Shown: piece after piece, positions 553-39,900 of the stretch | How positions within the stretch are numbered: position 1 is the stretch's first letter | Layout: every line of letters begins with the position of its first letter | Virus record (IMG/VR): IMGVR_UViG_3300037506_000287 | Coordinates: 1-54,067 of that record | Strand: one strand, 5' to 3' | Source: a virus | Lineage: Duplodnaviria > Caudoviricetes | Length of the DNA: 54,067 bases | The notes under the pieces: generated by a model | Seen by the model: the letters and a program-made list of their open reading frames with translations, nothing else | Told to the model about the DNA's origin: nothing | Database searches by the model: none | Made by a program: the position numbers and the translations under genes

Positions 553-804
553 ATGAAAAGATTTTCATACTTAGAACGCCATAAATTATTTGCTGGAAAA
601 ACTATCATTTCCCACAACACAAGTTGGGGTGGTGCGTTTGCAGATCACAAGCATTGGATGGCCGAACGCGATGGAGAAGTTTGGGATTACGGCTCGTTGC
701 AATTTCTTATCGACGATGCCATCAAGGATGGATTCGATTTCGTAGTGTTGCGGGTGCATCGCAATGGTGACGCAACCCAACTGCGACTGAGCAAAGATGA
801 TTGA
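553..804 (+). CDS. hypothetical protein
   Basis: ATG 553 just after previous stop; end overlaps start of next gene. Confidence 0.6.
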
Positions 805-1846
805 TATACAAGACAAAAGCATCCCCTTCAAGTTCGTTGATCTCTTCGCGGGTATAGGTGGCTTCCGTATCGCTTTGGAGAAATTGGGCGGGAAATGCGT
901 TTTCACCTCAGAATGGGATAAGCACTGCCAAAGAACATACAAAGACTGGTTTGGCGAGATTCCGCACGGCGATGTTCGCAAGGTGAAGCCATCGGAAATT
1001 CCCGACCACGACATACTCGCGGCCGGCTTCCCCTGCCAGCCATTTTCCATCGCTGGTGTATCAAAGAAAAAGAGTTTGGGGCGCGCACACGGTTTCAAGG
1101 ATGCGACCCAGGGCACACTCTTTTTCAATTTGGCAACCATTATCAAAGTCAAGAGACCACCTGTGCTTTTCCTTGAGAACGTCAAGAACCTCCAATCACA
1201 CGACAAAGGCCGCACCTGGAAAGTAATCCATGAAACTTTGGAGTCGCTGGGCTATTGGGTCTTTCATAAGGTAATTGACGCGGCGGGCTGGGTTCCTCAG
1301 CACCGGGAGCGCATTTACATCGTCTGCTTTGACAAGAAAACTTTTCCAGCCAGGCCTCCTTTTGAGTTCCCAGCCCCTCCCGAAAAGGAACAGCCAAAGT
1401 TGGCGGATATGCTTGAGCCATCGCCCGAATCCAAATACACGCTGACAAATCATCTCTGGAACTACCTCCAGGAGTACGCAGAGCGTCACCGCGCGAAGGG
1501 AAACGGCTTTGGCTTTGGCCTTGCGAATCCGAAAGGCGTTACACGGACACTAAGCGCAAGATACTATAAGGATGGTTCCGAAATTCTAATTCCTCAGAAT
1601 GGGCGAAATCCAAGAAGGCTTACACCGCGTGAGTGTGCTCGGCTCATGGGTTTTGGCGACCATCTGCCAATAGTCGTTTCGGACACACAGGCTTATAGAC
1701 AATTCGGCAACGCCGTAGTTCCAAAGGTTGTCGAAGCCGTCGGCGGTCAAATAACAAAAGTGTTGCGGAATGGCGAGCGGGCTAACGGGGAAATGAACAG
1801 AGACGCGTTAACCCGTTCGTCAGATGGAAGGAGTCGTAAGCTATGA
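797..1846 (+). CDS. dcm: C5-cytosine DNA methyltransferase, Dcm/EcoRII-like
   Basis: FAGIGG (motif I), GFPCQPFS (IV), ENV (VI), QHRERIY (VIII), [15 protein letters not shown] and [14 protein letters not shown] resemble Dcm. Confidence 0.92.
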
Positions 1847-2292
1847 CCGTTTATGCCGAAGCCGTGAATTTCTGGCAGACAAGTCGCTCATCGTCCGACA
1901 CATGGATTAGCAAAGCCCAGCGGCAAATTGAAGAACTCGGCGGCAAGGTGCTGGGCGAAGGCTTTGGAAGCGACGCGGAGGGCCGCGCCGCTTTCATGCT
2001 TGGATTTTCCATCGGCGGGGATGCGTTCAAAATCATATGGCCCGTCCTGACAAGCAAGACGAAGAACTCATCTGCCGCGAAAATCCAGGCCGCGACGATG
2101 ATGTATCACTACGTCAAAAGCGTCTGTTTGTACGCGGTTGTGGTCGGGGCGCGGGCCGCCTTCTTCTCTCACCTGATCCTGCCAGACGGTCGCGTAGCCT
2201 CGCAAGTTGCTGGTGATGAGATTGCCGAAGTCGTGCCGCAGGTGTTTTTATTGCCAGAGCCGGTGAGGTCGGATGACGCCGGCAAAGGGTGA
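1843..2292 (+). CDS. hypothetical protein
   Basis: 149-aa ORF with ATGA overlap to dcm. Confidence 0.7.
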
Positions 2293-2314
2293 TGTCCCTA
2301 TGGAGTTGGGCGGC

Positions 2315-2337
2315 GCGGCGAACGCAAACCGTTAGGT
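2315..2337 (+). repeat. attC-like right half-site, copy 2
   Basis: GCGGCGAACGCAAACCGTTAGGT, intergenic. Confidence 0.5.
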
Positions 2338-2408
2338 GATTTCATGCCAACGACCATCGAAGTGCACTCGCTTATACTGAAAATGTGGCAGGTCGTCGAG
2401 AGGGAACC

Positions 2409-3374
2409 GTGAGATTGGTTGATGGAGTTGGTGTGACCCGCGCTGATGCGCGGCGCGGGCCGTTGAGAGACGAATGTGTGCAATGCGTGGTCACATCGCC
2501 GCCTTACTACGGTTTGCGCGATTACGGGGTAGCCGGGCAGATTGGTCTTGAACAAACGCCCACCGATTACGTGGCGGAGGTGGTGACGGCGTTCCGCGAA
2601 GTGCGACGCGTGCTGAGACCTGACGGTGTGGTGTGGCTCGTTCTTGGAGATAGCTATGCCGTCAGTGGCAAGGGCGGGAAAGAGATAGGTCTGAAGCCCA
2701 AAGACTTGATAGGAATCCCCTGGATGATCGCATTCGCACTTCGAGATGATGGTTGGTATCTGCGCTCGGATGTTATTTGGAGCAAGCCAAATCCGATGCC
2801 GGAAAGCGTGACCGACCGTCCTACGCGGGCGCACGAATACGTGTTTTTGTTGAGCAGGAGCGGGCGTTACTTTTACGATGCGGGGTCAATCAAAACGCCT
2901 CCGAAGATGGAGTTTCAGTGGGCGCGCTGGACTCCCGGACAAAACCCGCACACGCTCAACCGGCCGCGCCGTTCTGACAAACAGCGCGGTCATTCGCGTC
3001 GCCATTCCGGTTTCAATGATCGATGGGATAAGATGAGCAAACTCGAACAGAGCGCGATGGGAGCGAATGCGCGGTCGGTTTGGGAGATGGCTCCTAGCCA
3101 GTACCGGGGCGCGCACTTCGCTACTTATCCGCCTGAGCTGGTCAGGCGATGTATCCTGGCTGGAAGTCGTCCGGGAGATTTGGTATTCGATCCTTTCACC
3201 GGGAGCGGCACGACCGGACTGGTCGCCGCTGCTCTGAATCGCCGGTTTGTAGGCGGGGAACTCAACCCGAAATACATCACACAATCCGTCAAGCGGTTGA
3301 GTCCAATTGCTTTTCAAGTGTGGTTGACTGGTTTGGGAAGAAAAATGAAGGAGAACGCCGCCCCGCGCGGCTGA
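2409..3374 (+). CDS. beta-class N4-cytosine/N6-adenine DNA methyltransferase
   Basis: TSPPY catalytic motif N-terminal; HFATYP and DPFTGSGTT SAM-binding motif C-terminal; GTG 2409 after GAGGGA (ORF open from 2385). Confidence 0.9.
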   Translation: MRLVDGVGVTRADARRGPLRDECVQCVVTSPPYYGLRDYGVAGQIGLEQTPTDYVAEVVTAFREVRRVLRPDGVVWLVLGDSYAVSGKGGKEIGLKPKDLIGIPWMIAFALRDDGWYLRSDVIWSKPNPMPESVTDRPTRAHEYVFLLSRSGRYFYDAGSIKTPPKMEFQWARWTPGQNPHTLNRPRRSDKQRGHSRRHSGFNDRWDKMSKLEQSAMGANARSVWEMAPSQYRGAHFATYPPELVRRCILAGSRPGDLVFDPFTGSGTTGLVAAALNRRFVGGELNPKYITQSVKRLSPIAFQVWLTGLGRKMKENAAPRG

Positions 3375-3430: not shown

Positions 3431-3670
3431 ATGAAAGTCGGGTATCCACAAGAGGACAACCGGCCAACCTTCGATGTGTCGAACGAAGGTGTGGATCAGC
3501 ACGTAATCGGCAACAAGTTCTGTACCGAGGGCTGGTGCGGCTCTACCTACCCGATCCCCTGCCAATGCGGCGGCTTGATCCACGCCGATTTTGGCGATGA
3601 AGATAGAGAGGGAAATTACTGGCTTATTCTCAGATGTGATCGGTGTGGGGAACGGTATGACGATTATTAG
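3431..3670 (+). CDS. small Cys-rich (Zn-ribbon-like) hypothetical protein
   Basis: GGAGG RBS, ATG 3431; CxC and CxxC motifs. Confidence 0.65.
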   Translation: MKVGYPQEDNRPTFDVSNEGVDQHVIGNKFCTEGWCGSTYPIPCQCGGLIHADFGDEDREGNYWLILRCDRCGERYDDY

Positions 3671-3689
3671 TCAGCGAGCCGGGGGGAGC

Positions 3690-4500
3690 GCCGCTCGTCC
3701 GTCCCGTCCCCCCGCACCGAGCGGCGCGGCGAACGGCGATCAGGCCAGAGTAGGGTGGGGGGCTTTCCAGTAAGCCTTTCTCGCAACAACAGCGGCGGCA
3801 TCGCCCCCAAACCTCCCTCAATAGAGCAGAAGACTGAGGTAGGGACATCCGAAAAGGGGGGAGAGAACCTATAGAACGCGATGTAAATTCTGTTCTAGTG
3901 CGCGCGTATGGCCTCCCGCACCAAAACAAAAACACACCAAATCAAAACGTCCCTACCCCACCAAATATAACGCAAAGAAAAGAGAACCCCCCGCCCGCCC
4001 GCCCCCGCCCGCCCCCGCCCTTCCGCCCCGCCCCCGACTGTTCACCCCTGACTGTCCGCCCGCCCGCCCATCACCTGTGCCACAACGCTATGCCCACCGC
4101 CCTCGACTGTCCGCCCCCGCCCGCTCCGCCCCCGCCCGCGCCTAGTATCTACTCCCGATAACTAGGACTTGTCGTTGGTGGGGTAGAGTGGTGGGCGGAC
4201 AGTCGGGGGCGTGCATGACTGAAGGCAGTGGGGTAGCGTGATGGGCGCGCACGACTTCAGGCCGTGGGGTAGGGGGGTTACCTTTTGAGTGACCTGTAGT
4301 GGAGTGTGGAGTGTGGGGATGAGTGTGACGTGGAGTGTGGCGTGGCGTGTGGCGTGTGGCGTGTGGCGTGTACGCGCATGACCTCTCGCTCCCCCAACCT
4401 CATATCCTTACGGCCGCCCGTCCTCTGTGGTTGGCATCCTCGAATAGTTGGCAAACGCCAACCAATACTAACCGAGGCTATCGCTCAGTGGCGGTTGCAC
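3690..4500. other. long non-coding low-complexity region; candidate genome terminus, origin or packaging region
   Basis: C-rich (CCCG)n tracts 3987-4140, G/T-rich (GTGGC)n tracts ~4296-4370, nested inverted repeat centred ~4154; overlapping ORFs are low-complexity artefacts. Confidence 0.55.
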
Positions 4501-4530
4501 GTGCTAATGTAGATGCACAATCAATCAACG

Positions 4531-4559
4531 CCCGCCGCCCGAACAAATAAGGGCGGCGG
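4531..4559 (+). promoter_or_regulatory. conserved early-gene hairpin, copy 1
   Basis: CCCGCCGCCC-GAACAAATAA-GGGCGGCGG, 7 nt before ATG 4567. Confidence 0.8.
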
Positions 4560-4566
4560 TCAAAAC

Positions 4567-4845
4567 ATGACTTTTTGCGAATTTCTGAAGGCTGCTTACG
4601 ACATGCGCGCGCCGGTCAAAGACTGGCGGGGTAGAGGGGGGGTACCCTACACTCATCAAAACCACTTTTTCATTGAATGTGGGCCAAGTGATGTGTGGGA
4701 GGCGTCCCCCGAGGGGAATGTCTGGTATCAAAACACACTGTGGGTGCTTAAAAATGTACCCCTTGGGGCGGGGTACACGTTTTACTCTGCTTTGGGTGAC
4801 TACACCCTGCCAGCGAAAGAGGGCTCCCCAACGTACGAACGGTAA
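4567..4845 (+). CDS. early hypothetical protein
   Basis: ATG immediately after hairpin copy 1. Confidence 0.6.
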   Translation: MTFCEFLKAAYDMRAPVKDWRGRGGVPYTHQNHFFIECGPSDVWEASPEGNVWYQNTLWVLKNVPLGAGYTFYSALGDYTLPAKEGSPTYER

Positions 4846-4868
4846 CGCCACTCAAAAGCGATAACGCG

Positions 4869-4898
4869 CCCGCCGCCCGAACAGATAAGGGCGGCGGG
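4869..4898 (+). promoter_or_regulatory. conserved early-gene hairpin, copy 2
   Basis: CCCGCCGCCC-GAACAGATAA-GGGCGGCGGG, 5 nt before csx15 ATG. Confidence 0.8.
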
Positions 4899-4903
4899 AA
4901 GAT

Positions 4904-5287
4904 ATGATTATCATCAACTTCTCTCACCCCCTCACCGATGAGCAGTTGGCGCGCGTGCAGGCGCTCACCGGCCATCCGGTGGAGCGCCTCATCAACATGC
5001 CGGTACAGTTTGATCACCAGCAGCCCTTCGAGCCTCAGCTGGCCGCCCTGCTGGGCGGCCTCGACCTCCCGCCCGACGAGTGGCAGACGGCCCCAATTAT
5101 CATCAATCCGCCATCCCTCAACTCCATCACCGCCCTAGTGCTGGCCGAACTGCACGGGCGCATGGGCTACTTCCCGCCCATTGTCCGGCTCCGTCCAGTT
5201 GCCGGCTCCATGCCACCGCGATATGAAGTGGCGGAAGTCTTCAACTTGCAGCGCACCCGCGACGCCGCGCGAATCAAGCGCCAGTAA
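4904..5287 (+). CDS. csx15: CRISPR-associated protein Csx15 homologue
   Basis: NFSHPLT, QFD...PF..Q, EWQT.P, LAELHGRMGYFP, EVAEV.NLQ..R..AR match Chloroflexota Csx15 over the whole length. Confidence 0.88.
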   Translation: MIIINFSHPLTDEQLARVQALTGHPVERLINMPVQFDHQQPFEPQLAALLGGLDLPPDEWQTAPIIINPPSLNSITALVLAELHGRMGYFPPIVRLRPVAGSMPPRYEVAEVFNLQRTRDAARIKRQ

Positions 5288-5289
5288 TC

Positions 5290-5335
5290 GTCGCACCGCC
5301 GCCCGTATCCGTTTGGGCGGCGGGGAGATTGAAAC
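5290..5335 (+). repeat. hairpin copy 3 (loop inverted) inside a solitary CRISPR-repeat-like unit
   Basis: GTCGCA-CCGCCGCCC-GTATCCGTTT-GGGCGGCGG-GGAGATTGAAAC. Confidence 0.5.
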
Positions 5336-5385
5336 CCCGTCCCGGGAGATTATGCCTGGGACACATTCTGGAAAGGAGAAATAAA

Positions 5386-5799
5386 ATGGGAGCCGACTTG
5401 TTTTTGGCCTCGGTATGTAACGAGGCCAGAGAAAAGTACTTGGCCTCTTATAAAGAGGCGTTGCGGTTGCGTGACAACGCAGCCACAACAGTCGAGTTCG
5501 ACATCTATCAAAAAGATGTCGAACGGTACTCCGGGTTAATGAACCCGGAGAATGGATACTTCAGGGACAGCTACAACGATAGCTGTCTCTTGTGGCGATG
5601 GGGTATGTCCTGGTGGGACAACCCGTTTGTTGAGGACGGAACAATAAGCCCTGAAAGGGCTGAGGAATTCCTGTTGGTCTTGAACCACATTATCACTCCC
5701 CCGGACTGGGGGGAGTACTTCGACGACAAAAAGAGGCGGCTTATCCGCCTCCTGGAAACAGCCATCTCCAAGGGCGAGAGCATAATCGCCGACGTCTAG
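5386..5799 (+). CDS. early hypothetical protein
   Basis: AGGAG RBS; MGADL... start, GYFRDSYN motif. Confidence 0.75.
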   Translation: MGADLFLASVCNEAREKYLASYKEALRLRDNAATTVEFDIYQKDVERYSGLMNPENGYFRDSYNDSCLLWRWGMSWWDNPFVEDGTISPERAEEFLLVLNHIITPPDWGEYFDDKKRRLIRLLETAISKGESIIADV

Positions 5800-5805
5800 A
5801 TAGTG

Positions 5806-5831
5806 CCCGCCGCCCGAACAAGGGCGGCGGG
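5806..5831 (+). promoter_or_regulatory. conserved early-gene hairpin, copy 4 (short loop)
   Basis: CCCGCCGCCC-GAACAA-GGGCGGCGGG, 9 nt before ATG 5841. Confidence 0.8.
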
Positions 5832-5840
5832 GAGAAGAAC

Positions 5841-6113
5841 ATGGGAAAACCGAAAATCGTTCTGGCGGCAGAGGTCGCTAGGGCAGCTGGTTATGAATAC
5901 ATGGCCTGCATAATTAAGTCGGTGAATCACATCGACTATTGGCAAGTTGTGCCAATAGGCGACATACTGCGGGCCGGTAGATGGCCCGCAGCCGGAAAGC
6001 TGTTTAGTTACAAACATGGGGGGACTAGTATCACGGTGGGGGTCACTACATCCATGCTACCAATGCAAACTATCAGCCGCAGGGAGGCCCTGCGGCTTGT
6101 GGATAACGACTGA
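5841..6113 (+). CDS. early hypothetical protein
   Basis: ATG after hairpin and GGAG. Confidence 0.65.
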   Translation: MGKPKIVLAAEVARAAGYEYMACIIKSVNHIDYWQVVPIGDILRAGRWPAAGKLFSYKHGGTSITVGVTTSMLPMQTISRREALRLVDND

Positions 6114-6125
6114 AAGGTACGACTT

Positions 6126-6344
6126 ATGATGGCTGCATTACAGGCCCTGATCGCCCGGATAGAGGGGCAGGGAGTCCCGCTCCCGGAGGATGAGCGGGAC
6201 TGGCTGGAATCGATAAAAACGCCGGATGATCTAGTGAACTATACACCGGATCATACCGGTAGATGGCAAGCCCTAGCTTGGGACGCGGCAAAGGCCCTGG
6301 GCTTGTCGAATTGGGACGCCGGCTCCGTTGCCGGTGATCACTGA
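6126..6344 (+). CDS. early hypothetical protein
   Basis: 72-aa acidic ORF in series. Confidence 0.6.
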   Translation: MMAALQALIARIEGQGVPLPEDERDWLESIKTPDDLVNYTPDHTGRWQALAWDAAKALGLSNWDAGSVAGDH

Positions 6345-6355
6345 CAAGCGCTAGG

Positions 6356-6628
6356 ATGTTAAGAATCCAAGAATACACCGTCAAGGGGGTGTTACAGGAA
6401 GGAAATTGCCAATATTGTCGTTGGTATCTAACCAACGGCGAAACGGCATTCGAACACGTCGGCTACATATACTGTAGCCGACAGTGCGCCAGAGACGACT
6501 GGAAAATCAGGGTTAAGGCCGAGGTGCAAGCGGCCAACCAGAGATGGGCCGCCGCCCGAACAAATAAGGGCGGCGGGGGAAAAGAATATGATCGAACTGA
6601 AGTTAATCAAAGAAGACAAAGGGGATAG
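6356..6628 (+). CDS. early hypothetical protein with CxxC...CxxxC Zn-finger-like motif
   Basis: CQYC and YCSRQC; the C-terminus reads through hairpin copy 5. Confidence 0.55.
   Translation: MLRIQEYTVKGVLQEGNCQYCRWYLTNGETAFEHVGYIYCSRQCARDDWKIRVKAEVQAANQRWAAARTNKGGGGKEYDRTEVNQRRQRG
6549..6576 (+). promoter_or_regulatory. conserved early-gene hairpin, copy 5
   Basis: CCGCCGCCC-GAACAAATAA-GGGCGGCGG, 11 nt before ATG 6588. Confidence 0.8.
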
Positions 6629-6800
6629 AAAGTTTGTCTTCAGGGGCGTGGAGTTCTGGGTTAACAACAGGAACCTGATTGGTTGGTGCAGTGACTGGAA
6701 CATTGTCGATGTCCTAGTCAAAGAGGGGCTAGCCAAAATCATATTCTACCCAAACTGTTACAACCACACTGACTACCTTTTGCTTGACCCTGACCGCTGA
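6588..6800 (+). CDS. early hypothetical protein
   Basis: ATG after hairpin. Confidence 0.6.
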   Translation: MIELKLIKEDKGDRKFVFRGVEFWVNNRNLIGWCSDWNIVDVLVKEGLAKIIFYPNCYNHTDYLLLDPDR

Positions 6801-6871
6801 CTGTCCGCGCTAGAGTGATGAGCGCATTACCAATTAGTACCAACACCCGAACTAAGGGCGACGAGGCCTGT

Positions 6872-7024
6872 ATGAGTAATTACTGGTTGATCAGCTATCT
6901 GTATAACTCAACTACGCAGGCGCAGTTTGTCATCCGCGCCCGCGACAAGTACGAGGCATTATGGGCGGCCCGTTGGTTGGTGCGGGCCACTATTATCGAT
7001 TGCTTGCCCTATCCTGGCGAGTAA
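6872..7024 (+). CDS. early hypothetical protein
   Basis: ATG 6872 after degenerate hairpin CCCGAACTAAGGGCGACG and GAGG. Confidence 0.5.
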   Translation: MSNYWLISYLYNSTTQAQFVIRARDKYEALWAARWLVRATIIDCLPYPGE

Positions 7025-7039
7025 AAAAGGAGACTCTCG

Positions 7040-7750
7040 ATGAACCGATACCCTGGAACGTATGCTGAGGCCGAGGCTTACCTCGGCCAGAAATTAGGGC
7101 GGCCCATTGCGAACAATACCCGGATTGTTAGAGGTGATGGGCATATCGCCCTGACCCTGCACGAGAACACGATAGTGGAGTATACCCCCTCAGGGGTATC
7201 GCTTTATTCGTCGGGGTGGCGCACCCCGACGACAAAAGACCGCATCAACCGCGTGATTGAACAGAGGGGATATACAGTATTTTCTGTTGCCGGGGTGTGG
7301 TATGTAGCCCCTAACCGCCGGGAGGCGGCCGTACCATTCGCGGAGGGCTTGACCCTCCGGGCCGACGGCACTTTGACTGGTGCCGCCGAGGCCGAGGATG
7401 CTAAGAGGTCGCTGACTCTCCGAAAGTCAATAAAGGCGTACGCGAAAGCTTACGCCGCGGAGTTTGGGGCGGGCCGGATAGACCGGCCCGGCCCGGGAGA
7501 TTGTGTGTACTGCCGCCTAGAGGCAAGCGGTACGGAGGCAATCCCCAATGACCATTTAGAAATTCACTTGGCTGATGGTTATTATGTACCCTCACTGTTG
7601 GTGACTGCCGCCCGAACGTGCCCGGACAAACTGTCCAGTTACGCGTCAGGGTTTATCGAAGAGTGGGCCGCAACTGAAGATATCGGAGGGACGGCCCAGA
7701 GGCAGATTGAATCCTGCATCAAGGCTTACCTGATACGGCGGCTAGGATGA
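7040..7750 (+). CDS. conserved phage hypothetical protein
   Basis: AGGAG RBS; GWRTPTTKDRIN motif seen in phage early proteins; CxxC. Confidence 0.75.
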   Translation: MNRYPGTYAEAEAYLGQKLGRPIANNTRIVRGDGHIALTLHENTIVEYTPSGVSLYSSGWRTPTTKDRINRVIEQRGYTVFSVAGVWYVAPNRREAAVPFAEGLTLRADGTLTGAAEAEDAKRSLTLRKSIKAYAKAYAAEFGAGRIDRPGPGDCVYCRLEASGTEAIPNDHLEIHLADGYYVPSLLVTAARTCPDKLSSYASGFIEEWAATEDIGGTAQRQIESCIKAYLIRRLG

Positions 7751-7774
7751 TTGGATTGGATTGGATTGGATTGG
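7750..7774 (+). repeat. (ATTGG)5 microsatellite
   Basis: ATTGGATTGGATTGGATTGGATTGG. Confidence 0.9.
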
Positions 7775-7795
7775 GCGAGTAAGGCTTACTCGCCC
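7773..7795. promoter_or_regulatory. palindromic site GAGTAAG-N-CTTACTC (extended to 23 bp)
   Basis: GGGCGAGTAAG-G-CTTACTCGCCC, intergenic. Confidence 0.7.
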
Positions 7796-7841
7796 GCTCA
7801 CGTCTGCCCACGCAGTTCTCTAGAAAGCGAGAGGTGAAAGT

Positions 7842-8608
7842 ATGAACGGGTTTAAGTTCCTATCGAATGGGTGCACTTATTTTCAGGGAGTAGAGACTCA
7901 ATATCTGCTCCCCCGTCCCGGCGAGAAGTGGGGGCCTTGGCTGGAGCACCCTCAGCCCGCCTTGCCAGATGGGAAGGATTGCGGGGAGGGACGTTATCAT
8001 GTCATGAAAAAACTTGACGCATCTTACGCGCCCCAGTCTTGGTGGCCGTGGTTTGCGCAGGCAGAAAATGTAGTGGGGGAGAGTCGTCAGAAATTCTCGG
8101 CTACGCGTATCCGGTTACGCCGGATACGCCGCGACACGTTCTGGTACTTGATCCGGCGCGGATACCTCCGCGGGGCCAACCTGTACGGGGCCGACCTGCG
8201 CGATGCCGACCTGAGCGGGGCAAACCTGCACGGGGCAAACCTGAACGAGGCAAACCTGTACGGGGCCAACCTGCGCGAGGCCGACCTGAGCGGGGCCTCC
8301 CTGCACGGGGCAAACCTGCGCGGATACCTCCGCGGGGCCGACCTGCGCGAGGCCGACCTGAGCGGGGCAAACCTGCGCAGGGCCGACCTGAGCGAGGCCG
8401 ACCTGAGCGGGGCCGACCTGAGTGGAGCAAACCTGCACGGGGCAAACCTGCACGGGGCAAACCTGCACGGGGCAAACCTGCGCAGGGCCGACCTGAGCGA
8501 GGCCGACCTGAGCGGGGCAAACCTGCACGGGGCCGACCTGACCTGTACGGGGCCGACCTGCGCGAGGCCGACCTGAGCGGGGCCGACATGTGGAATGTAA
8601 GGCGATGA
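7842..8608 (+). CDS. pentapeptide-repeat protein with a frameshift near the 3' end
   Basis: Long run of A(D/N)Lxx repeats; ACCTG duplication at ~8536-8545 moves the final repeats into the frame ending at 8608. Confidence 0.85.
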
Positions 8609-9006
8609 AACCGGAACGTTGGTATAGGTGGCGCAATGCTCAGATTCGAGGAAAGGCGCGTAAAGCGCTCGAACATCCCGGCCTGCTACGCACTCGACTG
8701 CGGGACGCATTGCGTCGTTTGCAGGTGATTGTAATCGAGTATGAGTCGAGGGTAACCGATGCAAGGGGGTTGGATTGGTACTATGACGCGCTAATCGAGT
8801 CGCGCGGGCAACGTGCCTATATCGATCTGCATGTGACTGAGATAGCTGGTGCGAAGAAGACCAACCTCATGCGTGATCAGTGGAAGCGTAAGGCCCTGGC
8901 TGCCTCCCCGGTGCCCGTCATCGGACTGGAGAGGCGTAAGACGGAGGAAATGATGGCCGATATAACCAGGGAACTCATCCGCATCCGACTGAGCCCTAAA
9001 AAGTAA
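8605..9006 (+). CDS. hypothetical protein, possible restriction-endonuclease-like (DUF559-like) fold
   Basis: ATGA overlap; YDALI...YIDLH...RDQWK...PVIGL pattern. Confidence 0.55.
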   Translation: MKPERWYRWRNAQIRGKARKALEHPGLLRTRLRDALRRLQVIVIEYESRVTDARGLDWYYDALIESRGQRAYIDLHVTEIAGAKKTNLMRDQWKRKALAASPVPVIGLERRKTEEMMADITRELIRIRLSPKK

Positions 9007-9063
9007 GACGCGGAATAGCGCCCACCGCTGAACTGATAAGGGCGACTAAAAGGACAAATCTGT

Positions 9064-9405
9064 ATGGTCTACCTGCTCCACCTCACCCAAGTCATGCCGC
9101 GCGGTATAGCCCGCAACGGCAAGCCGTTACAAGCCGGCCATTACGTCGGTTACACCCAACTTAATCTTGAGCTAAGGCTGACACACCACCGCAACGGTAC
9201 GGGCGCACGCATGTTGCAGGTGTGCCGGGAACGGGGCGGAGATTGGGTCGTGGCGAGGGTGTGGCCGGATGGGGATAGAGTGTGGGAGCGTCGAATCAAA
9301 CGACAGAAAAACGCCGCTCGCCTATGCCCGATATGTGCGGGCGAGGCTGCCCTTCGCAGACTGAAAGGAACTGGCGGGATGCCAAAGTCGCCACCGCTTA
9401 TCTGA
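9064..9405 (+). CDS. GIY-YIG superfamily nuclease
   Basis: VYLLH...HYVGYT...RL..HR.G.GAR...ERRIK...CPIC. Confidence 0.75.
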   Translation: MVYLLHLTQVMPRGIARNGKPLQAGHYVGYTQLNLELRLTHHRNGTGARMLQVCRERGGDWVVARVWPDGDRVWERRIKRQKNAARLCPICAGEAALRRLKGTGGMPKSPPLI

Positions 9406-9434
9406 GAGTCCTAAATGAAACCAGGAGAAAGGCA

Positions 9435-9695
9435 ATGATAATCGGTATTGGCACACCCCGGACTGTTGTGGATGAGTATCTCCGACTAATAGGGGAAGAG
9501 TGGAAACCTGACGGTCTGTGGAAATGCCTGTGCGGACTGGTGCAAAGCGGAGAGTTATTGCAGATTGTGTATGAGGGCGACTTGATTCACCACTACGAAT
9601 GTTCGCAGTACGGATGCGCCGGCAGGGTTACAGCGGAGGAAGACTCAGCCCCCCACCCTGCCCCGGTATCGGCGGTATCCCTCCCGGAGGGGTAG
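9435..9695 (+). CDS. hypothetical Cys-containing protein
   Basis: AGGAG RBS, ATG 9435. Confidence 0.5.
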   Translation: MIIGIGTPRTVVDEYLRLIGEEWKPDGLWKCLCGLVQSGELLQIVYEGDLIHHYECSQYGCAGRVTAEEDSAPHPAPVSAVSLPEG

Positions 9696-9843
9696 GTGCA
9701 ACCGACTGCCTTTCGGTGGGCATCAGTTCCATCAGGTCAATGCCGTGCTCCTCGGCAATCCTGACTATCTGTGCCATCAGGTTTCGTAACATCGAGACGG
9801 TAGCTTCGCGGTCGTCACCCTTGGACGGTTGATTGGGTAGCAT
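9628..9843 (-). CDS. lone antisense small protein with helical N-terminus and Pro/Gly tail
   Basis: GGAG RBS, ATG 9843, own promoter and leader hairpin. Confidence 0.65.
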   Translation of the reverse strand: MLPNQPSKGDDREATVSMLRNLMAQIVRIAEEHGIDLMELMPTERQSVAPTPPGGIPPIPGQGGGLSLPPL

Positions 9844-9855
9844 GGCATTCTCCAA

Positions 9856-9901
9856 CATGCAGACGAGTGGTGAAAGGAAGAAAACCCCACTCGTCTGCAT
9901 G
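9856..9901 (-). promoter_or_regulatory. 15-bp perfect-stem hairpin in the 5' leader of the antisense gene
   Basis: CATGCAGACGAGTGG...CCACTCGTCTGCATG with a 16-nt loop. Confidence 0.7.
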
Positions 9902-9909
9902 ATGGGAAC

Positions 9910-9938
9910 ATTGTAAGGAAGACCGAAGGAAATCGCAA
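9910..9938 (-). promoter_or_regulatory. sigma70-type promoter
   Basis: TTGCGA-N17-TACAAT on the minus strand. Confidence 0.65.
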
Positions 9939-9950
9939 ACGAGGGAACCA

Positions 9951-10283
9951 ATGCACACTCTAACCACAATCTACAAACTAAAATCGCTGTACTACAGATG
10001 TGGCGATAATCTGTACAGCCATCTCGGGGAGAAAGAGTGCGCCAATTGCGGGTCACCTCTGCTCACCCCTCCCGACCTATGGCCCCCGGTTGTGCGACTG
10101 GCGATGGGATGGGATCGGTCGAGCTACATTGCTGACGTAGATCACCTAACCGATGTTGACCGGTGGGGGCTAATCCTCGCATTCGAGAAAGGTTTACTCG
10201 AACGAGCTATGGTGACAATTGAGGGTACGTTTCTCGTTGTGTACGCCCGTCGTCAGTGGTTTGACCTGGGTTACTATCGATGA
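9951..10283 (+). CDS. Zn-ribbon hypothetical protein
   Basis: GAGGG RBS; RCG...CANC. Confidence 0.6.
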   Translation: MHTLTTIYKLKSLYYRCGDNLYSHLGEKECANCGSPLLTPPDLWPPVVRLAMGWDRSSYIADVDHLTDVDRWGLILAFEKGLLERAMVTIEGTFLVVYARRQWFDLGYYR

Positions 10284-10723
10284 ACCCTAACCAAGACTAT
10301 CCATCACATGCCGACGGGCCGGATAAAATAACGCCACCAATGAACCGCCGCCAGTTCCTAAAACTCTCCACTCTCCTGACCGGTTTGTCGTTGATCCCTA
10401 TACTGCCGAGGATATCACCGGCCTTGGAACTCCGCGGGGAATGGGAAATCATCAGCCTGATGTACACTCCGACATTCCAGGAGGCGTGGCTGACCGTTAT
10501 CGTGGATGGAGACGTGAAGATCAGATGGAATGGAAGGCAGGGCACGGCGGTTAGTATGGCTGGGCCGTTGGAGGTGGCGCAGTCGTTTGAGATACGCGCC
10601 GCCGAGGGAGAATTGCAAGTCAGCTCTCGACAGGTAGAAGGCAGATTTATCCGGCTGCGAGTAGACCGCTTTATCATCCCTACCTGTCAAGCCTTCCTGC
10701 CCATCGTCAGTAGAGACGATTGA
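10280..10723 (+). CDS. putative Tat-exported protein (start may be 10340)
   Basis: NRRQFLK twin-arginine motif plus hydrophobic stretch; C-terminal FLPIVSR. Confidence 0.65.
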   Translation: MNPNQDYPSHADGPDKITPPMNRRQFLKLSTLLTGLSLIPILPRISPALELRGEWEIISLMYTPTFQEAWLTVIVDGDVKIRWNGRQGTAVSMAGPLEVAQSFEIRAAEGELQVSSRQVEGRFIRLRVDRFIIPTCQAFLPIVSRDD

Positions 10724-20430: not shown

Positions 20431-20633
20431 CTGACTTCAAATACACGGTGGTTGAGCGCACACCCGAACAGGTCGTGGTGCGCCTGACTGCCGGACATCA
20501 CGAGGACTGGCACGAGATTGGGAAGCTGACGTTCTCGCTTCAGGAGTGGCGCGAGTTCGAGATAACCGTCTGCCATCCCAATGCGCAGATCACCGAACGC
20601 CTGAAACTCAAATCGTGGGTTGCGACCGACTGA
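20427..20633 (+). CDS. hypothetical protein
   Basis: ATGA overlap; ends at the terminator. Confidence 0.55.
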   Translation: MTDFKYTVVERTPEQVVVRLTAGHHEDWHEIGKLTFSLQEWREFEITVCHPNAQITERLKLKSWVATD

Positions 20634-20672
20634 ATAGAAAAGCCCCGGTGGGCGAGCCGGGGCTTTTCTATT
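20633..20672. terminator. bidirectional rho-independent terminator
   Basis: AATAGAAAAGCCCCGG-loop-CCGGGGCTTTTCTATT between convergent modules. Confidence 0.9.
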
Positions 20673-36962: not shown

Positions 36963-39900
36963 CTACGCAGCCGACTGACCGTGAAGGCGGGTCACATCAA
37001 TCATCGCCTCGACCTGAGCCTTCATCTCGGGATGCCGCACGGCGATTCCCTTCAGATGCTCAACCGCAGGTTCCGATAATGGCTGGCCTGATTGCACCTC
37101 GGCAATCACAACCGGCGAGACGGTTTTGAGGAATTTGTCCGTCCAAATAGGCTTGCCACTAATCCCACCCCGGGCAAACCTCTGCGGGTTGAGCAGGTCA
37201 GACGGATTAAGCGACGACCGGTTCCCCAACGGAAGGAAATGTTGAGCCAGAGCCTCATGCAGGTCACGAATTGGATCACTGCCCGACCCGCCGCCGCTAT
37301 AACCGCCCACACCGAGAAAGGCTTTCTCCGCATCGGCTACTCCTTTCAAAGCATCACTGCGCCGCTTCTTCATCTGGTCTTTGAAGTCGTCATACTCCGC
37401 CAATTGCGGGTGCATATTCCAAAACGCCAAGCCCGCCTCGTATCCCTGTAGCACAGTGATATTCACAAACTGGTCAAACAGTTTAGCTATTCCCGGCCAG
37501 CGAGCCTCAGCCTGAGCATCCAACCAGTCATAAAACCTGGACGAGAAAAGCAGGGAACCGCTGGAGCCGCCGGCATAACCACCCCCACCGCCGACGAGGA
37601 CTTGACCTCCCGAAACCATCGCTTTCCCCAATGCCTCAATCAGAGGCCGGAACTGTTCGGGCAAATGAGTACGCCAATCATTTGCCCAATCACCATCCCG
37701 TTGGACGGCATCTATGTATTTGTAAAGCGACTCCCAATCCAAAGGCTGACCAGTCTGCTTTTCCATCTCGTTCATCGCTCGACCAAGAGCCTCTGCCGCT
37801 GTCCTCACTTCTCCCGACAAACGGGTGCGCCACTCATTCTCCCAATCCCCATCCTGACGGATCATCTCGAAGTAGGTCAGCGCCGACTTGAACTCGTCAG
37901 CACTGACCGGCCCAGGCACGTAAGACGCGCCTCTCGGGCTGCCTGAGCTTGAATACCAGCCACCACCTCCCCCACCTCCTCCACCGCCACCACTGCGCAC
38001 GGCGCGAGACGTGACCGACCCGCCGCCGCTCGCACCGTCCTTCGTGTAATACTGCGCCCACTCAGGATAGAGCACGCCCCAATCATCCCGGAAATCGTAA
38101 TACGCATCAATGCGCTTATCTTGCCGCCGCATCGCACGTCGCTCCGAAGACGATGCCGCACCGTAAGCACCAATTACTTGCCAGATGTCCTCCCCGAGAC
38201 GCTTGGCCGCTTCAATTCGGAAACGGTCGTTGAGTTCCGCCACCGCGACGTAGACCTCTAACTCAGCCCGCGACGGTTCGGTGAGATTGAGATTGGCGGC
38301 GGCTTGCTTCAAGCGATCTACAAAGGCATAGAGTTTTTCTTCATCTCGCCACGCTCCCCCCGTGTCGTAGAACACGGAGAAATCATCTTCCTTCCCACCC
38401 AAACGCACGTACTCCTCATACAACCTGCTACGCGCCTTTCCCGGCGGAAGCCAGGACAACACCGTGTAGGCGTCATCCACCGCCTTGCCATGCTCATCCT
38501 GCGGTTCCAATCGATCCTCGAGCGTAGTCACGCCATGAGCCTTCGCGGCCGCAATCAGGTCTTCTCTCCGGTATTGTCCGGCAGGATATTTAGAAAGCAC
38601 CCAATCCGCGAGTTCTTCGGCACTCGGTTCGGGCTTGGCGACGAACTCATGCTCGAAGAGCCGTCTGGCCGCTCCGCTCTTTCCCCGAATACCATCCCAA
38701 TACACATCCCAACGAAGTTCTTTCCACGCTCTATCAAGCGCATCATACGTCGTATCACGCGACATCTCCCATTGGTCGTAGGCATCCGGCGTAGTAGCTG
38801 TCTTCAATCGCTCCATTGCCGTTTGCATCGAACTCAACTCGCTCGCCACAAACTCCGGGCTATCCCCACTCCTTCGGATACGATCCGTCTCCGATTGGAT
38901 AAAGACGGCCTGTAGCTTCTCCGCCTGATAAGGCAAAGCAGCCCGCCACTCCTCCACCTTCACCTGCCAGTCGTCGTAGGTCTCACCACCACTCTTATCC
39001 CACTTCGGTTTAGTCTCGCGCAACATCTGGAACCATTCGTCCTCGTAGTACCGTTCGACCATCCCCTGCGGTTTCTCGCCCGCGACCCAACTCCGTTGCG
39101 CAACGGCATACATCGGCTCATTCTCGATTTTATGGCGCTCCGGCCAATACCAATCCCACACGGCATCTCTGGCCTTGGTATCCGCTCCGACCGGTAAAGA
39201 CGCCAGCCGTTCATTGAGTTGAGCGCCCAAGACCGCAAGGGCGTCGTAGTATGCCCGCGTTACCTGATGGTCATTGATCTTCTGAGCAATGATGTCGCGC
39301 CGCTGCTCCTTATCCGGGTTCAAGTCATCCGGGGTCTTGACGTAGCGCACATCACCATACAACACCAGCATGTACCCGTCCGGCGTCCGATACTTACCGT
39401 TGATCCACGACTGATACCGCTCCTCAGCGTCCGCCGACAAATCAAATATCCGCGCTTTGGTCTCATTGTTGATCGACTCGCGCAATAGATTGATCTCATC
39501 CCGTAACTGAATGAACGTCGCATCCGCGTCGGTATGCTCGCGGGTGAAGAAACCGGTGAAATAACCTGCCAGCTTTTTATAGTATTCGCTGTCGTCCACC
39601 TGATCGCGCGTCGTCAGCCACAACTCCTGAGACTCGCGGCCCTTCAACGCTTCCTCGACTCGGAAGGCGAGGGCTTGTTTCTGGACTTCAGTCAGATTGC
39701 CGGTCTGCATCTGTTGGAGAGCATTCCGAAGCATCTGACGCTCGATCAGAAAGTCTTTCCAGCCCACCTCGGGCGAGATAAAAGTGTTCCAGAATTCCTT
39801 GGCGTTGGGGAAGGCAGCACGCGTCACCCACTCCAACATCCGCCGCTCGTAATAGGGCGGGATGAGATCGAGTTGCGGAATGATGGCCCAAGCCGGGATG

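What the first reader, a model, noticed from the sequence alone, without database searches (positions are those of the whole stretch)
4531..9046. Early genes are delimited by a conserved GC-stem/A-rich-loop hairpin, forming a cassette-like array
Seen: CCGCCGCCC-GAACA(A/G)ATAA-GGGCGGCGG at 4531, 4869 and 6549, a short-loop copy at 5806, an inverted-loop copy at 5296, and degenerate copies near 6846 and 9018. The four forward copies end 5-11 nt before an ATG, so the 3' arm occupies the Shine-Dalgarno position. Loop sequence is conserved, which implies sequence-specific recognition, and there are no U-tracts. Known analogues are N4 hairpin promoters, T7 RNase III sites and T4-type PeSL elements that shuffle early genes. 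Inference: a shared expression/processing signal that also provides homology for swapping host-takeover genes; csx15 sits exactly between two copies, so its neighbours are anti-defence candidates.
Basis: partly seen in the sequence, partly recalled or inferred. Interest (0 to 1): 0.82.

Follow-up and report, generated by a model that had tools for sequence, protein, structure and literature searches.

The report
Repeated hairpin flanking phage early genes
An uncultured freshwater phage carries the same very stable GC hairpin just upstream of several small, probably early genes, and related DNA from the same lakes shows this hairpin joined to different genes, so it probably marks exchangeable gene cassettes, much like regulatory repeats already known in T4-type phages.

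Summary
Five exact copies of CCGCCGCCC-loop-GGGCGGCGG lie at 4532, 4870, 5296, 5807 and 6549 (0 expected). Two point-mutated relics lie at 6849 and 9030. All are in non-coding gaps before + strand starts, except that the 6549 copy lies inside the 3' end of ORF F. The four forward copies end 5-11 nt before an ATG. Stems are predicted at -22 to -27 kcal/mol and have no U-tract. csx15 between two copies is confirmed.

Contigs from two freshwater metagenomes show the hairpin joined to other gene contexts, which supports the cassette idea.

Tested and not met:
- sigma-70 promoter
- canonical terminator
- RNase III-length stem
- N4 geometry or N4 polymerase
- Y1 transposase or integrase
- copies in 401 sampled Chloroflexota genomes

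No close relative could be fetched, so covariation is untested.

My best reading (confidence 0.4) is a portable hairpin-RBS module at the 5' edge of each cistron. It would act in the mRNA, and its identical copies would serve as crossover points. That makes it a promoter-less variant of T4 PeSL or mycobacteriophage ESAS repeats.

Separately, the whole 4.5-8.3 kb region is packed with perfect hairpins (23 against 0.6 expected). This is unexplained.

The parts
4532..4559 (+). Hairpin copy 1: 9-bp GC stem, loop GAACAAATAA. Lies 7 nt before the ATG of gene A (4567) and follows about 600 nt of non-coding repeat-rich DNA.
   Evidence: (-21.6 kcal/mol, z -3.9)
4869..4898 (+). Hairpin copy 2: 10-bp stem, loop GAACAGATAA. 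Lies 23 nt after the stop of gene A and 5 nt before the ATG of csx15 (4904).
   Evidence: (-25.8 kcal/mol, z -5.1)
5296..5323 (-). Hairpin copy 3: same stem, loop in reverse orientation with 3 changes. Lies 8 nt after the csx15 stop and 62 nt before gene C (5386), which has its own AAGGAGA ribosome-binding site.
   Evidence: -26.0 kcal/mol; 48.2 bits on the - strand against 24.0 on the +; the model was trained on this orientation
5806..5831 (+). Hairpin copy 4: 10-bp stem, short loop GAACAA. Lies 6 nt after the stop of gene C and 9 nt before the ATG of gene D (5841).
   Evidence: -26.7 kcal/mol, z -6.2
6549..6576 (+). Hairpin copy 5: 9-bp stem, loop GAACAAATAA. Lies 11 nt before the ATG of gene G (6588) and inside the 3' end of ORF F, which reads through it.
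   Evidence: (-22.0 kcal/mol, z -3.7)
6840..6866 (+). Decayed copy: 5' arm with 3 substitutions, loop lacking 3 nt, 3' arm with 2 substitutions. It no longer folds. Lies 5 nt before the ATG of gene H (6872).
   Evidence: (z +0.25)
9021..9046 (+). Decayed copy (GAACTGATAAGGGCGAC with a mutated 5' arm), 17 nt before the ATG of the GIY-YIG-like gene (9064).
   Evidence: (z -1.27)
4567..4845 (+). Gene A, 92 aa, no family found.
4904..5287 (+). csx15 (ring-nuclease family). GC3 is 0.80 against 0.53-0.70 in the neighbouring genes A and C-G.
5386..5799 (+). Gene C, 137 aa. Member of a mostly viral family of unknown function. Contains five perfect hairpins.
5841..6113 (+). Gene D, 90 aa. In variant contigs its body follows hairpin-1 context, and its 3' remnant follows a copy of hairpin 2.
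6126..6344 (+). Gene E, 72 aa. In variant contigs its stop is followed by 25 other letters and then a hairpin copy.
6356..6628 (+). ORF F, 90 aa, with a zinc-ribbon-like CxxC...CxxxC motif. Its last 26 codons run through hairpin 5 and overlap gene G.
6588..6800 (+). Gene G, 70 aa, no family found.

Best explanation
The element is a roughly 30-nt start-associated stem-loop module (hairpin, short spacer with a weak G-rich ribosome-binding site, then ATG). It sits at the 5' edge of individual small genes in a putative early operon that I take to be polycistronic and read by the host RNA polymerase. I think it acts in the mRNA. The very stable stem has no U-tract, so it does not release the polymerase. 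Instead it insulates neighbouring cistrons: it blocks 3'-to-5' exonucleases for the upstream message and, after cleavage in the AU-richer stretch before it, caps the 5' end of the downstream message. It also holds the start region in a fixed context, which in some copies ribosomes finishing the upstream gene would open. Each gene plus its hairpin is therefore a self-contained expression unit. Because the copies are direct repeats identical over 28-30 bp, they also serve as crossover points, so genes are deleted, inserted or re-ordered as cassettes. Shown: existence, statistics, position, orientation, predicted stability, lack of promoter and terminator signatures, and hairpin-bounded alternative junctions in natural populations. 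Inferred: that the region is early, that one transcript spans it, the RNA-level role, and homologous recombination as the exchange mechanism.
For: - Five exact copies against 0 expected, plus two relics, all seven in the non-coding gaps of + strand genes or, for 6549, inside the 3' end of ORF F.
- Six of seven are in the sense orientation. Four of the five intact copies end 5-11 nt before an ATG. Copy 1 has no gene within about 400 nt upstream, so the element belongs to the downstream gene.
- Predicted RNA stability is -21.6 to -26.7 kcal/mol, z -2.5 to -6.2.
- None of the 9 terminator-like sites and none of the 8 promoter-like sites found in 3500-10500 overlaps a hairpin copy; the nearest, a promoter-like site at 5358-5387, lies 35 nt beyond copy 3.
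- The phage has a textbook A-tract/GC-stem/T-tract hairpin where its two gene blocks converge (20633-20672). So U-less hairpins here are unlikely to be its ordinary terminators.
- No T7-type RNA polymerase was detected in the window, which is consistent with host transcription.
-, contigs of two freshwater DNA runs laid on 3500-10500. Of the 15 joints listed (5 more not shown), 12 lie in the pentapeptide-repeat gene. The other 3 each have one side at a hairpin: 4546 (in the loop of copy 1) to 6383; 4567 to 5850 with 13 other letters (depth 12, side 57); 4898 (last base of copy 2) to 6066 with 27 other letters (depth 12.8, side 30).
-, table 5c, adds 6344 (last base of the gene E stop) followed by 25 other letters and then 4526, six nt before copy 1. 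This is seen in both runs (depths 4.72 and 8.75).
- The reference arrangement is also present in run X1 (contig 4342-4954, 0 differences).
- GC3 differs sharply between adjacent units: csx15 0.80, A 0.59, D 0.57, F 0.53. This points to separate origins.
- ORF F runs through copy 5, as expected if a junction replaced its original end.
- The phage encodes a RecA-like protein and an SNF2 helicase.
Against: - There are no transcript data: no RNA run is listed as holding the region.
- There is no covariation. All stems are identical and no close relative could be fetched. Selection on structure is therefore unproven and recent copying could explain the identity.
- Stems here and in the other hairpins of the region are strictly Watson-Crick with no G-U pairs and no sense-strand bias. 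That pattern fits a DNA-level or a young feature as well as an RNA one.
- Two copies have decayed without loss of the downstream ORF, so the hairpin is dispensable at least there.
- The breakpoint of the best-supported joint (4567) lies at the start codon, 7 nt beyond the stem. It is not the simple product of hairpin-by-hairpin crossover in the reference.
- The variant contigs could come from the missing 15% or so of this same genome (paralogous cassettes) rather than from other strains. Joints found at an 80% likeness threshold with sides of 21-57 nt are weak individually.
- A stem this stable that ends 5-11 nt before the ATG should hinder ribosome binding.
Confidence: 0.4

Rival explanations
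1. Transcriptional attenuators, that is, the stem-loop half of a PeSL-type cassette. The GC hairpins would partly stop host RNA polymerase between early genes and so set a descending gradient of expression, and they would recombine as PeSLs do.
For: In T4-type phages a G/C-tract stem-loop from a PeSL reduced lacZ expression like a strong terminator, and PeSLs sit before ORFans with an SD and start codon at their 3' edge (PMC2839356, section 13, read). Here the stems are very stable and lie between cistrons. Another viral contig has a U-less 10-bp GC hairpin right after its csx15 (L378).
Against: The tail is A-rich rather than U-rich, and no copy passes the terminator scan. Copy 1 precedes the first gene with nothing upstream to terminate. 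The genome uses a canonical T-tract hairpin elsewhere (20633-20672). Efficient stops before every gene would silence the genes downstream, because none of the four forward copies has a promoter-like site next to it; the only one near a copy lies 35 nt beyond the inverted copy 3 and overlaps the gene C start.
Confidence: 0.2
2. A protein-recognised RNA hairpin. A phage-encoded (or host) RNA-binding protein would bind the conserved A-rich loop on the GC stem to control translation or to modify the polymerase, in the manner of a translational operator or a nut/boxB site.
For: The 5' part of the loop (GAAC) is kept in all four forward copies and both relics, and orientation is kept in 6 of 7. The inverted copy has diverged most in its loop. 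The short-loop copy (a GC stem closing a 6-nt purine-rich loop) resembles in style the boxB hairpins of lambdoid phages; this is recalled, not tested. Gene K (8590-9006) begins with an arginine-rich stretch (translation).
Against: Loop lengths of 10 and 6 nt are hard to reconcile with one binding mode. No boxA-like partner motif is visible. Gene K and the other early proteins hit no RNA-binding family. Loop identity within a single genome can be recent copying.
Confidence: 0.15
3. A DNA-level structure. The hairpins would extrude as cruciforms or fold in single-stranded DNA, and would act as recombination or replication hot spots or as unconventional promoters. The conserved copy would be only the most frequent member of a hairpin-dense region.
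For: Window 4501-8300 holds 23 perfect hairpins against 0.56 +/- 0.70 in shuffles. The remaining 45.8 kb holds 20 against 5.75 +/- 2.3. Mean folding z is -2.34 there against -0.1 to -0.5 elsewhere. Stems are sharply bounded and purely Watson-Crick. No comparable hairpin (10 stem positions or more) with a single G-U or A-C interruption is present in this region, and there is no sense-strand wobble bias. The flipped loop at 5296 is the kind of change that recombination between hairpin arms produces.
Against: Neither a virion-type nor a T7-type RNA polymerase was detected. The geometry (9-10 bp stem, 6-10 nt loop) differs from N4 promoters. Orientation and a fixed distance to the ATG point to a role read from one strand together with translation signals. 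Perfect stems can equally be young RNA elements.
Confidence: 0.12
4. A neutral or selfish repeat. The sequence would have been copied along with gene 5' ends by illegitimate recombination or gene conversion, or spread by a mobile-element enzyme, and would have no function of its own.
For: Copies are identical, with no compensatory change. Two copies are decaying by point mutation. One copy sits inside an ORF.
Against: There is no Y1 (REP-associated) transposase and no tyrosine recombinase in the window (both controls rang). The motif is absent from the other viral contigs and from 401 sampled Chloroflexota genomes. Position and orientation relative to starts are too regular for random insertion.
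Confidence: 0.08
5. An RNA anti-CRISPR. The 28-nt hairpins would mimic the host's CRISPR repeat and soak up Cas proteins, working alongside the Csx15 ring nuclease.
For: The length (28 nt) and palindromic core resemble those of a repeat. There are several copies in the first-expressed region next to a counter-CRISPR candidate.
Against: The motif, allowing up to 2 mismatches, is in 0 of 401 sampled Chloroflexota genomes. A 9-10 bp stem spanning the whole unit, with no single-stranded handle, is unlike typical repeats (established knowledge). The host is unknown, so the test is incomplete.
Confidence: 0.03

Closest known systems
PeSL (promoter-early stem-loop) cassettes of T4-type phages (Arbiol et al. 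2010, PMC2839356: abstract and section 13 read. Comeau et al. 2014, PMC4122927: search listing and start of abstract only)
   Same: Short repeated intergenic modules with a G/C-tract stem-loop and an SD plus start codon at the 3' edge. They sit before small genes of unknown function in a variable early region, and gene gain, loss and replacement have breakpoints at the repeats.
   Different: No sigma-70 -35/-10 elements or AT-rich upstream element accompany the hairpin here. Here the repeat is the hairpin alone, identical over 28-30 nt with a conserved loop. The phage lineage and probable host are unrelated. Mini-circles were not tested.
Start-associated sequences and extended SAS (ESAS) of Cluster K mycobacteriophages (Pope et al. 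2011, PMC3203893: passages read)
   Same: Repeats a few bp upstream of the start codons of a subset of non-structural genes, nearly all in one orientation. ESAS adds inverted repeats separated by a 4-13 bp spacer. Function is unknown and a role in translation is suspected.
   Different: ESAS arms are 17 bp and imperfect and accompany a separate 13-bp asymmetric motif. Here the arms are 9-10 bp and perfect and there is no separate motif. The sequences are unrelated. ESAS sites are kept with their gene families across phages, which could not be examined here.
RNase III processing hairpins between T7 early genes (established knowledge, recalled)
   Same: Hairpins without U-tracts between cistrons of a polycistronic early mRNA, leaving protective stems on the processed messages.
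   Different: T7 sites are long irregular duplexes of about two helical turns. These stems are 9-10 bp and do not extend in a context of 53-68 nt.
Bacterial REP/BIME elements (established knowledge, recalled)
   Same: GC-rich palindromes of about 30 nt in intergenic gaps of operons that stabilise upstream mRNA and promote rearrangements.
   Different: REPs are host-chromosome repeats with many copies and a dedicated Y1 transposase. Neither was found.
N4 early hairpin promoters (established knowledge, recalled)
   Same: Conserved hairpins at the first-expressed end of a phage genome.
   Different: N4 hairpins have 5-7 bp stems with 3-nt loops and need a giant virion RNA polymerase. Neither feature is met. 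The second palindrome family of this phage has the N4-like geometry instead.

Membership tests
PeSL cassette (T4-type phages) | Sigma-70-like -35/-10 early promoter with an AT-rich upstream region inside the repeat | tested here: not met
   8 promoter-like sites in 3500-10500, none at or overlapping the four forward copies. The only nearby one (5358-5387) overlaps the start codon of gene C.
PeSL cassette (T4-type phages) | Stable G/C-tract stem-loop with an SD and start codon at the 3' edge, placed before small ORFs of unknown function | tested here: met
PeSL cassette (T4-type phages) | Insertions, deletions and replacements between close relatives with breakpoints at the repeats | tested here: inconclusive
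   the 3 listed joints outside the pentapeptide repeat, plus one in table 5c, all touch a hairpin copy. The evidence is short contigs only, laid at 80% likeness, and they may come from the unsampled part of the same genome.
PeSL cassette (T4-type phages) | The stem-loop terminates or attenuates transcription, and mini-circles form | not testable with these tools
   Needs reporter assays and outward-facing PCR.
Intrinsic (Rho-independent) terminator | GC stem followed directly by a U-tract | tested here: not met
   (no copy called). The tails are TCAAAAC, AAGAT, GAGAAGAAC and GGGAAAAGAAT.
RNase III processing site (T7 type) | Duplex of about 20 bp or more, usually with an internal loop | tested here: not met
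   9-10 bp, with no extension into the flanks.
N4-type hairpin promoter | 5-7 bp stem with a 3-nt loop | tested here: not met
   9-10 bp stems, loops of 6 or 10 nt.
N4-type hairpin promoter | Giant virion RNA polymerase with a T7-like domain encoded by the phage | tested here: inconclusive
   The 2846-aa ORF has no family and no solved relative. PF00940 was not found in the window, but the control rang nowhere, and the contig is about 85% complete.
SAS/ESAS (Cluster K mycobacteriophages) | 13-bp asymmetric motif 3-8 bp before starts, with or without 17-bp imperfect inverted repeats | tested here: not met
   The sequence and arm length differ (against the passages of PMC3203893 read). Only the layout is alike.
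REP/BIME with RAYT | Many copies in the host chromosome and a Y1 transposase | tested here: not met
   0 of 401 sampled Chloroflexota genomes; no Y1_Tnp in the window (control rang in 10 of 14 genomes). The host is not identified, so the first part is incomplete.
Integron attC cassette array | Tyrosine recombinase IntI, and attC sites of 57-141 bp that are imperfect and carry extrahelical bases at the 3' end of each cassette | tested here: not met
   no Phage_integrase family member (control rang in 14 of 14). The hairpins are 26-30 nt, perfect, and lie at the 5' side of genes.
RNA anti-CRISPR (solitary repeat mimic) | Sequence similarity to the host's CRISPR repeat | tested here: inconclusive
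   no match in 401 sampled Chloroflexota genomes. The host is unknown.
Csx15 (the gene between copies 2 and 3) | Full-length match to the curated family model above its cut-off | tested here: met
   NF040560, 167.2 bits against a cut-off of 35, residues 2-126 of 127.

The most novel reading that the evidence does not exclude
The conserved hairpin is only the mobile, most visible part of a larger design. The first-expressed block of counter-defence genes (4.5-8.3 kb) would be selected to be saturated with perfect hairpins, inside coding sequence as well. This would be a structural armour that shields early transcripts or the entering DNA from RNA-guided (type III CRISPR) or nuclease-based defences. 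The shared 5' hairpin module would let anti-defence genes such as the viral Csx15 ring nuclease be swapped between co-circulating phages as ready-to-express cassettes.
Probability: 0.12. Interest if true: 0.8.

Novelty: new variant of a known kind. Interest (0 to 1): 0.5.

Why it matters
Whether short conserved sequences at gene borders drive modular exchange in phages is an old question. Clear cases are few, and the best known are the PeSLs of T4-type phages. This element is a minimal version, a 30-nt hairpin with no promoter, in an unrelated uncultured phage, and natural variants already show it in different gene contexts. It therefore offers a simple system for testing whether an expression signal doubles as a recombination site. 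It also flanks a viral csx15, a gene family only recently proposed as an anti-CRISPR ring nuclease, so tracking the hairpin in metagenomes could point to other portable counter-defence genes. The extreme hairpin density of the whole region is not accounted for by anything I could find and deserves its own study.

Tried and rejected
- Motif searches in 2.9 million viral contigs. The full loop motif, the loop plus 4 bp of stem, and the full stem with any GAACA loop all gave 0 hits. Almost all were single copies with unrelated loops and none had a GAACA loop.
None of the fetched loci holds the full loop. These two collections were therefore not effectively searched for the element.
- Relatives by protein in viral contigs. 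SNF2 gave 4 loci at 25-27% identity. PolA and gene I gave none. Csx15 gave one locus at 44% identity with an unrelated hairpin. Comparative genomics and covariation were therefore not possible.
- The covariance model from the five copies found only those five at E below 0.6.
- Cultured phages: blastn of the hairpin gave only chance-level partial hits at E = 4. The capsid protein's nearest cultured relatives are Bacillus and Streptomyces phages at about 31% identity.
- No RNA holder is listed for the region, and I draw no conclusion on expression from that.
- Parts of the region without cover in run X2 were not used as evidence.
- The sense-strand wobble test (G-U against A-C) was uninformative: 3 against 4, and no interrupted stems.
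- One variant of the 6458-6482 hairpin keeps its predicted energy, but mostly because its core pairs are unchanged, so it is not counted as covariation.
- Gene A had no usable Atlas hit. Gene C belongs to a mostly viral family of unknown function. Its nearest named clusters (a DNA-mimic family by features at 0.90, Barstar by structure at TM 0.52) are at chance level and are not claimed.
- Supplementary files of the Csx15 and PeSL papers were not opened. The list of viral Csx15 sequences in the former may include this contig.

Full report
WHAT THE WINDOW IS
The window is a whole IMG/VR virus record, 54,067 bp, linear, estimated about 85% complete.
- On the + strand from 1 to about 20.6 kb it carries a C5 and an N6/N4 DNA methylase, a block of small ORFs, and then SNF2 helicase, a primase-like protein, family A DNA polymerase and a RecA-like protein.
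- On the - strand it carries terminase, portal, a 2846-aa ORF without any family, and the major head protein.
- The two blocks converge at a textbook A-tract/GC-stem/T-tract hairpin at 20633-20672.
- No cultured phage is close. The capsid is about 31% identical to those of Bacillus and Streptomyces phages, and the 5-kb region matches cultured phages only through its pentapeptide repeats.
- The nearest named homologues of its csx15 are from Chloroflexota, and csx15 occurs in 72 of 401 sampled genomes of that phylum. A Chloroflexota host is therefore a reasonable inference, but no more than that.
- Calling the small-ORF block 'early' is also an inference, from its position and strand.

- CCGCCGCCC-N(3-14)-GGGCGGCGG matches exactly five times, at 4532, 4870, 5296, 5807 and 6549, against none in 100 shuffles.
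- Three loops are GAACA(A/G)ATAA and one is GAACAA. The 5296 loop matches the consensus only when reverse-complemented, with three changes.
- Two further copies, at 6849 and 9030, are real as sequence: GAAC-N(0-4)-TAAGGGCG occurs five times on the + strand against 0.01 expected. Both arms carry point substitutions, and the copies no longer fold.
- A covariance model built from the five copies finds no others in the window.
- Predicted RNA stabilities are -21.6 to -26.7 kcal/mol. In 200 shuffles none folds as well for the four forward copies, and 5 do for copy 3.

ANATOMY
- Every copy lies upstream of a + strand start. The four forward copies end 7, 5, 9 and 11 nt before the ATGs of genes A, csx15, D and G. 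The relics precede H and the GIY-YIG-like gene.
- The inverted copy is 62 nt from gene C, which has its own strong AAGGAGA site.
- Copy 1 follows about 600 nt of repeat-rich non-coding DNA and has no gene before it. The element therefore belongs to the gene downstream, not to the one upstream.
- Copy 5 lies inside ORF F, whose last 26 codons read through the hairpin and overlap gene G. That is what a junction which replaced F's original end would look like.
- In copies 4 and 5 a GGAG or GGGGGA run follows the stem. In copies 1 and 2 the only purine-rich candidate is the 3' arm itself.
- Adjacent units differ in composition: GC3 is 0.80 for csx15 against 0.59 for A and 0.53-0.57 for D and F.

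WHAT IT IS NOT
- Not a canonical terminator. None of the 9 terminator-like sites found in 3500-10500 is a hairpin copy, and the tails are A-rich.
- Not a sigma-70 promoter. None of the 8 promoter-like sites overlaps a hairpin copy, and none lies next to the four forward copies.
- Not an RNase III site. The stems are half the usual length and do not extend.
- Not an N4-type promoter. The geometry is wrong, and neither a T7-type polymerase (though its control was silent) nor any recognisable domain in the giant ORF was found.
- No Y1 transposase and no tyrosine recombinase is present (with working controls). This argues against REP-like or integron-like mobility.
- The motif is in none of 401 sampled Chloroflexota genomes, allowing up to two mismatches. 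That gives no support to a host repeat or a CRISPR-repeat mimic, but the host is unknown.

EVIDENCE FROM NATURAL POPULATIONS
Two freshwater-metagenome DNA runs hold the region (word shares 0.90 and 0.72). I laid their contigs on 3500-10500 at 80% likeness or better.
- The reference order is present in X1 (contig 4342-4954, no differences).
- Of the 15 joints listed (5 more were not shown), 12 fall in the pentapeptide-repeat gene and are repeat noise.
- The other three all touch a hairpin copy:
  (a) 4567 to 5850 with 13 other letters between (depth 12, shorter side 57 nt). Here the hairpin-1 context is followed directly by gene D. The inserted letters supply an in-frame ATG, so genes A, csx15 and C are missing at that place.
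  (b) 4898, the last base of copy 2, to 6066 with 27 other letters (depth 12.8, side 30). Here a hairpin is followed by only the last 20 or so codons of gene D.
  (c) 4546, in the loop of copy 1, to 6383 in gene F (depth 4.72, side 21).
- Table 5c adds 6344, the last base of gene E's stop, followed by 25 other letters and then 4526, six nt before copy 1. This is seen in both runs. Taken with (c), it reads as a hairpin inserted between E and F, where the reference has none.
- The inserted letters are absent from the reference, and the longest stretch shared by two forward copies in the reference is 28 nt. I reasoned, from recall that these contigs come from a 31-mer assembly (no call states this), that chimeric assembly is then unlikely.
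- Caveats. The pieces are short and the likeness threshold is low. The best joint breaks at the start codon rather than inside the stem. The contigs could also derive from the unsampled 15% or so of this same genome. Either way, the same hairpin with its immediate flank is found attached to different genes.

MECHANISM
I commit, at 0.4, to an RNA-level start-associated module.
- A U-less, very stable stem between cistrons would act as an exonuclease barrier, and after processing as a 5' cap. It would fix the context of a weak ribosome-binding site.
- In copies 3-5 the hairpin could be opened by ribosomes finishing the upstream ORF, since the stops lie 6-8 nt before the stem or beyond it.
- The 28-30 bp identical direct repeats would then be by-product crossover sites for the phage's own recombination proteins (RecA-like).
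- The RNA role is inferred, not shown.
- The main rivals are a PeSL-like attenuator (0.2), a protein-bound regulatory hairpin (0.15), a DNA-level structure (0.12), a functionless repeat (0.08) and an RNA anti-CRISPR (0.03).

AN UNEXPECTED REGIONAL FEATURE
- The conserved hairpins are embedded in an extraordinary density of other perfect hairpins. There are 23 with stems of 8 bp or more in 4501-8300, against 0.56 +/- 0.70 in 100 shuffles. The remaining 45.8 kb holds 20 against 5.75 +/- 2.3.
- Eighteen of the 23 are unrelated in sequence to the family. Seventeen of those lie inside ORFs (one is a copy of the second palindrome family, at 7773-7795). Gene C alone has five, yet it belongs to a well-modelled, mostly viral protein family.
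- Mean folding z-score is -2.34 over 31 windows in this region, against -0.1 to -0.5 elsewhere.
- The stems are strictly Watson-Crick with no wobble bias, so RNA and DNA readings cannot be separated.
- I found no explanation for this feature. It raises the weight of structure-based readings generally.

COMPARISON WITH KNOWN SYSTEMS
- The closest is the PeSL of T4-type phages (PMC2839356, abstract and section 13 read). It is a G/C stem-loop plus SD and start before ORFans in hyperplastic regions, and it mediates gene shuffling. PeSLs are defined by a sigma-70 promoter, which is absent here, so this is not a member.
- The layout also resembles the ESAS inverted repeats before the starts of non-structural genes in Cluster K mycobacteriophages (PMC3203893, passages read). 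Their function is likewise unknown, and the sequences are unrelated.

csx15 AND ITS NEIGHBOURS
- Csx15 was recently characterised as a ring nuclease. A preprint reports more than 20 metagenomic viral homologues and proposes the name AcrIII-3 (bioRxiv 10.64898/2026.10.26.761840; passages and section 15 read). A second preprint was seen only in the search listing. The phage csx15 is therefore a new instance, not a new idea.
- Its neighbours remain uncharacterised.

VERDICT
The repeat is real and is more than chance. The cassette reading is partly supported by population data, but the proposed recognition and processing functions are untested. It is best filed as a new, promoter-less variant of known phage intergenic regulatory repeats, and is of moderate interest. 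The hairpin-saturated region around it is the stranger observation.

Noticed in passing
window 4501-8300: Extreme density of perfect hairpins: 23 with stems of 8 bp or more against 0.56 expected, and mean folding z -2.34 against about -0.4 elsewhere. Seventeen lie inside the small ORFs (five in gene C). Stems are strictly Watson-Crick and sharply bounded. Unexplained.
   Followed up: partly
window 3767, 7776, 10184, 11208, 12642, 18869, 22477, 26577, 33953, 37313, 41153, 45540, 47457, 47883: A second, genome-wide palindrome family, CGAG(A/T)AAG-N-CTT(A/T)CTCG (7-bp stem, 3-nt loop), with 14 copies against 0.04 expected. About half are intergenic, at gene borders on both gene blocks, and the rest lie inside ORFs. 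It may be the phage's transcription or regulator-binding signal. Its geometry, unlike that of the GC hairpin, resembles N4-type hairpins.
   Followed up: partly
window 3940-4530: About 600 nt of apparently non-coding DNA upstream of hairpin 1. It has an A-rich stretch, C-rich repeats (3988-4142), a G-rich stretch that is partly their inverted complement (4170-4300), and GT-rich 7-14-nt tandem repeats (4299-4371). Summed metagenome depth is about 10 times higher at 4202-4435. It could be an origin, a packaging site or a control region. The ORF at 3898-4161 is probably not real.
   Followed up: no
window 4904-5287: A phage-borne csx15 with GC3 of 0.80, far above its neighbours. The nearest homologue is 87% identical and lies on short JGI contigs. 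Summed depth in both metagenomes is 4-8 times that of the flanks, meaning other organisms in the same water carry csx15 at 80% identity or more. This suggests recent capture from the host.
   Followed up: partly
L378:3400-3960: The only other viral contig found with csx15 (44% identity) carries it as a self-contained unit. It has a good -35/-10-like promoter (my reading of the printed sequence, no scan run), a strong ribosome-binding site, and a 10-bp GC hairpin without a T-tract right after the stop.
   Followed up: no
window 7749-7774: A perfect five-fold GATTG/GGATT tandem repeat immediately before a copy of the second palindrome family, in the gap before the pentapeptide-repeat gene.
   Followed up: no
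window 36963-45503 (-): A 2846-aa ORF between the portal and the major head protein, with no Pfam family, one faint PHROG hit of unknown function and no solved relative. It contains glycine runs near its C-terminus. Probably an internal virion or ejection protein. Not shown to be a polymerase.
   Followed up: partly
window 49521-51578 (-): The large terminase subunit has a sub-threshold match to the intein splicing domain at residues 184-324 (23.3 bits against a cut-off of 35.8). It may carry an intein.
   Followed up: no
window 8590-9006: Gene K begins, after an internal ATG, with an arginine- and tryptophan-rich stretch reminiscent of RNA-binding arginine-rich motifs. No family found.
   Followed up: no
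window 797-3374 and 7842-8576: Two DNA methylases (C5, and N6/N4) and a 244-aa pentapeptide-repeat protein flank the hairpin block. Together with csx15 they make the left 9 kb look like a counter-defence region.
   Followed up: no
window 20633-20672: A 16-bp perfect hairpin with an A-tract on one side and a T-tract on the other, where the + and - strand gene blocks converge. It looks like a bidirectional intrinsic terminator.
   Followed up: no
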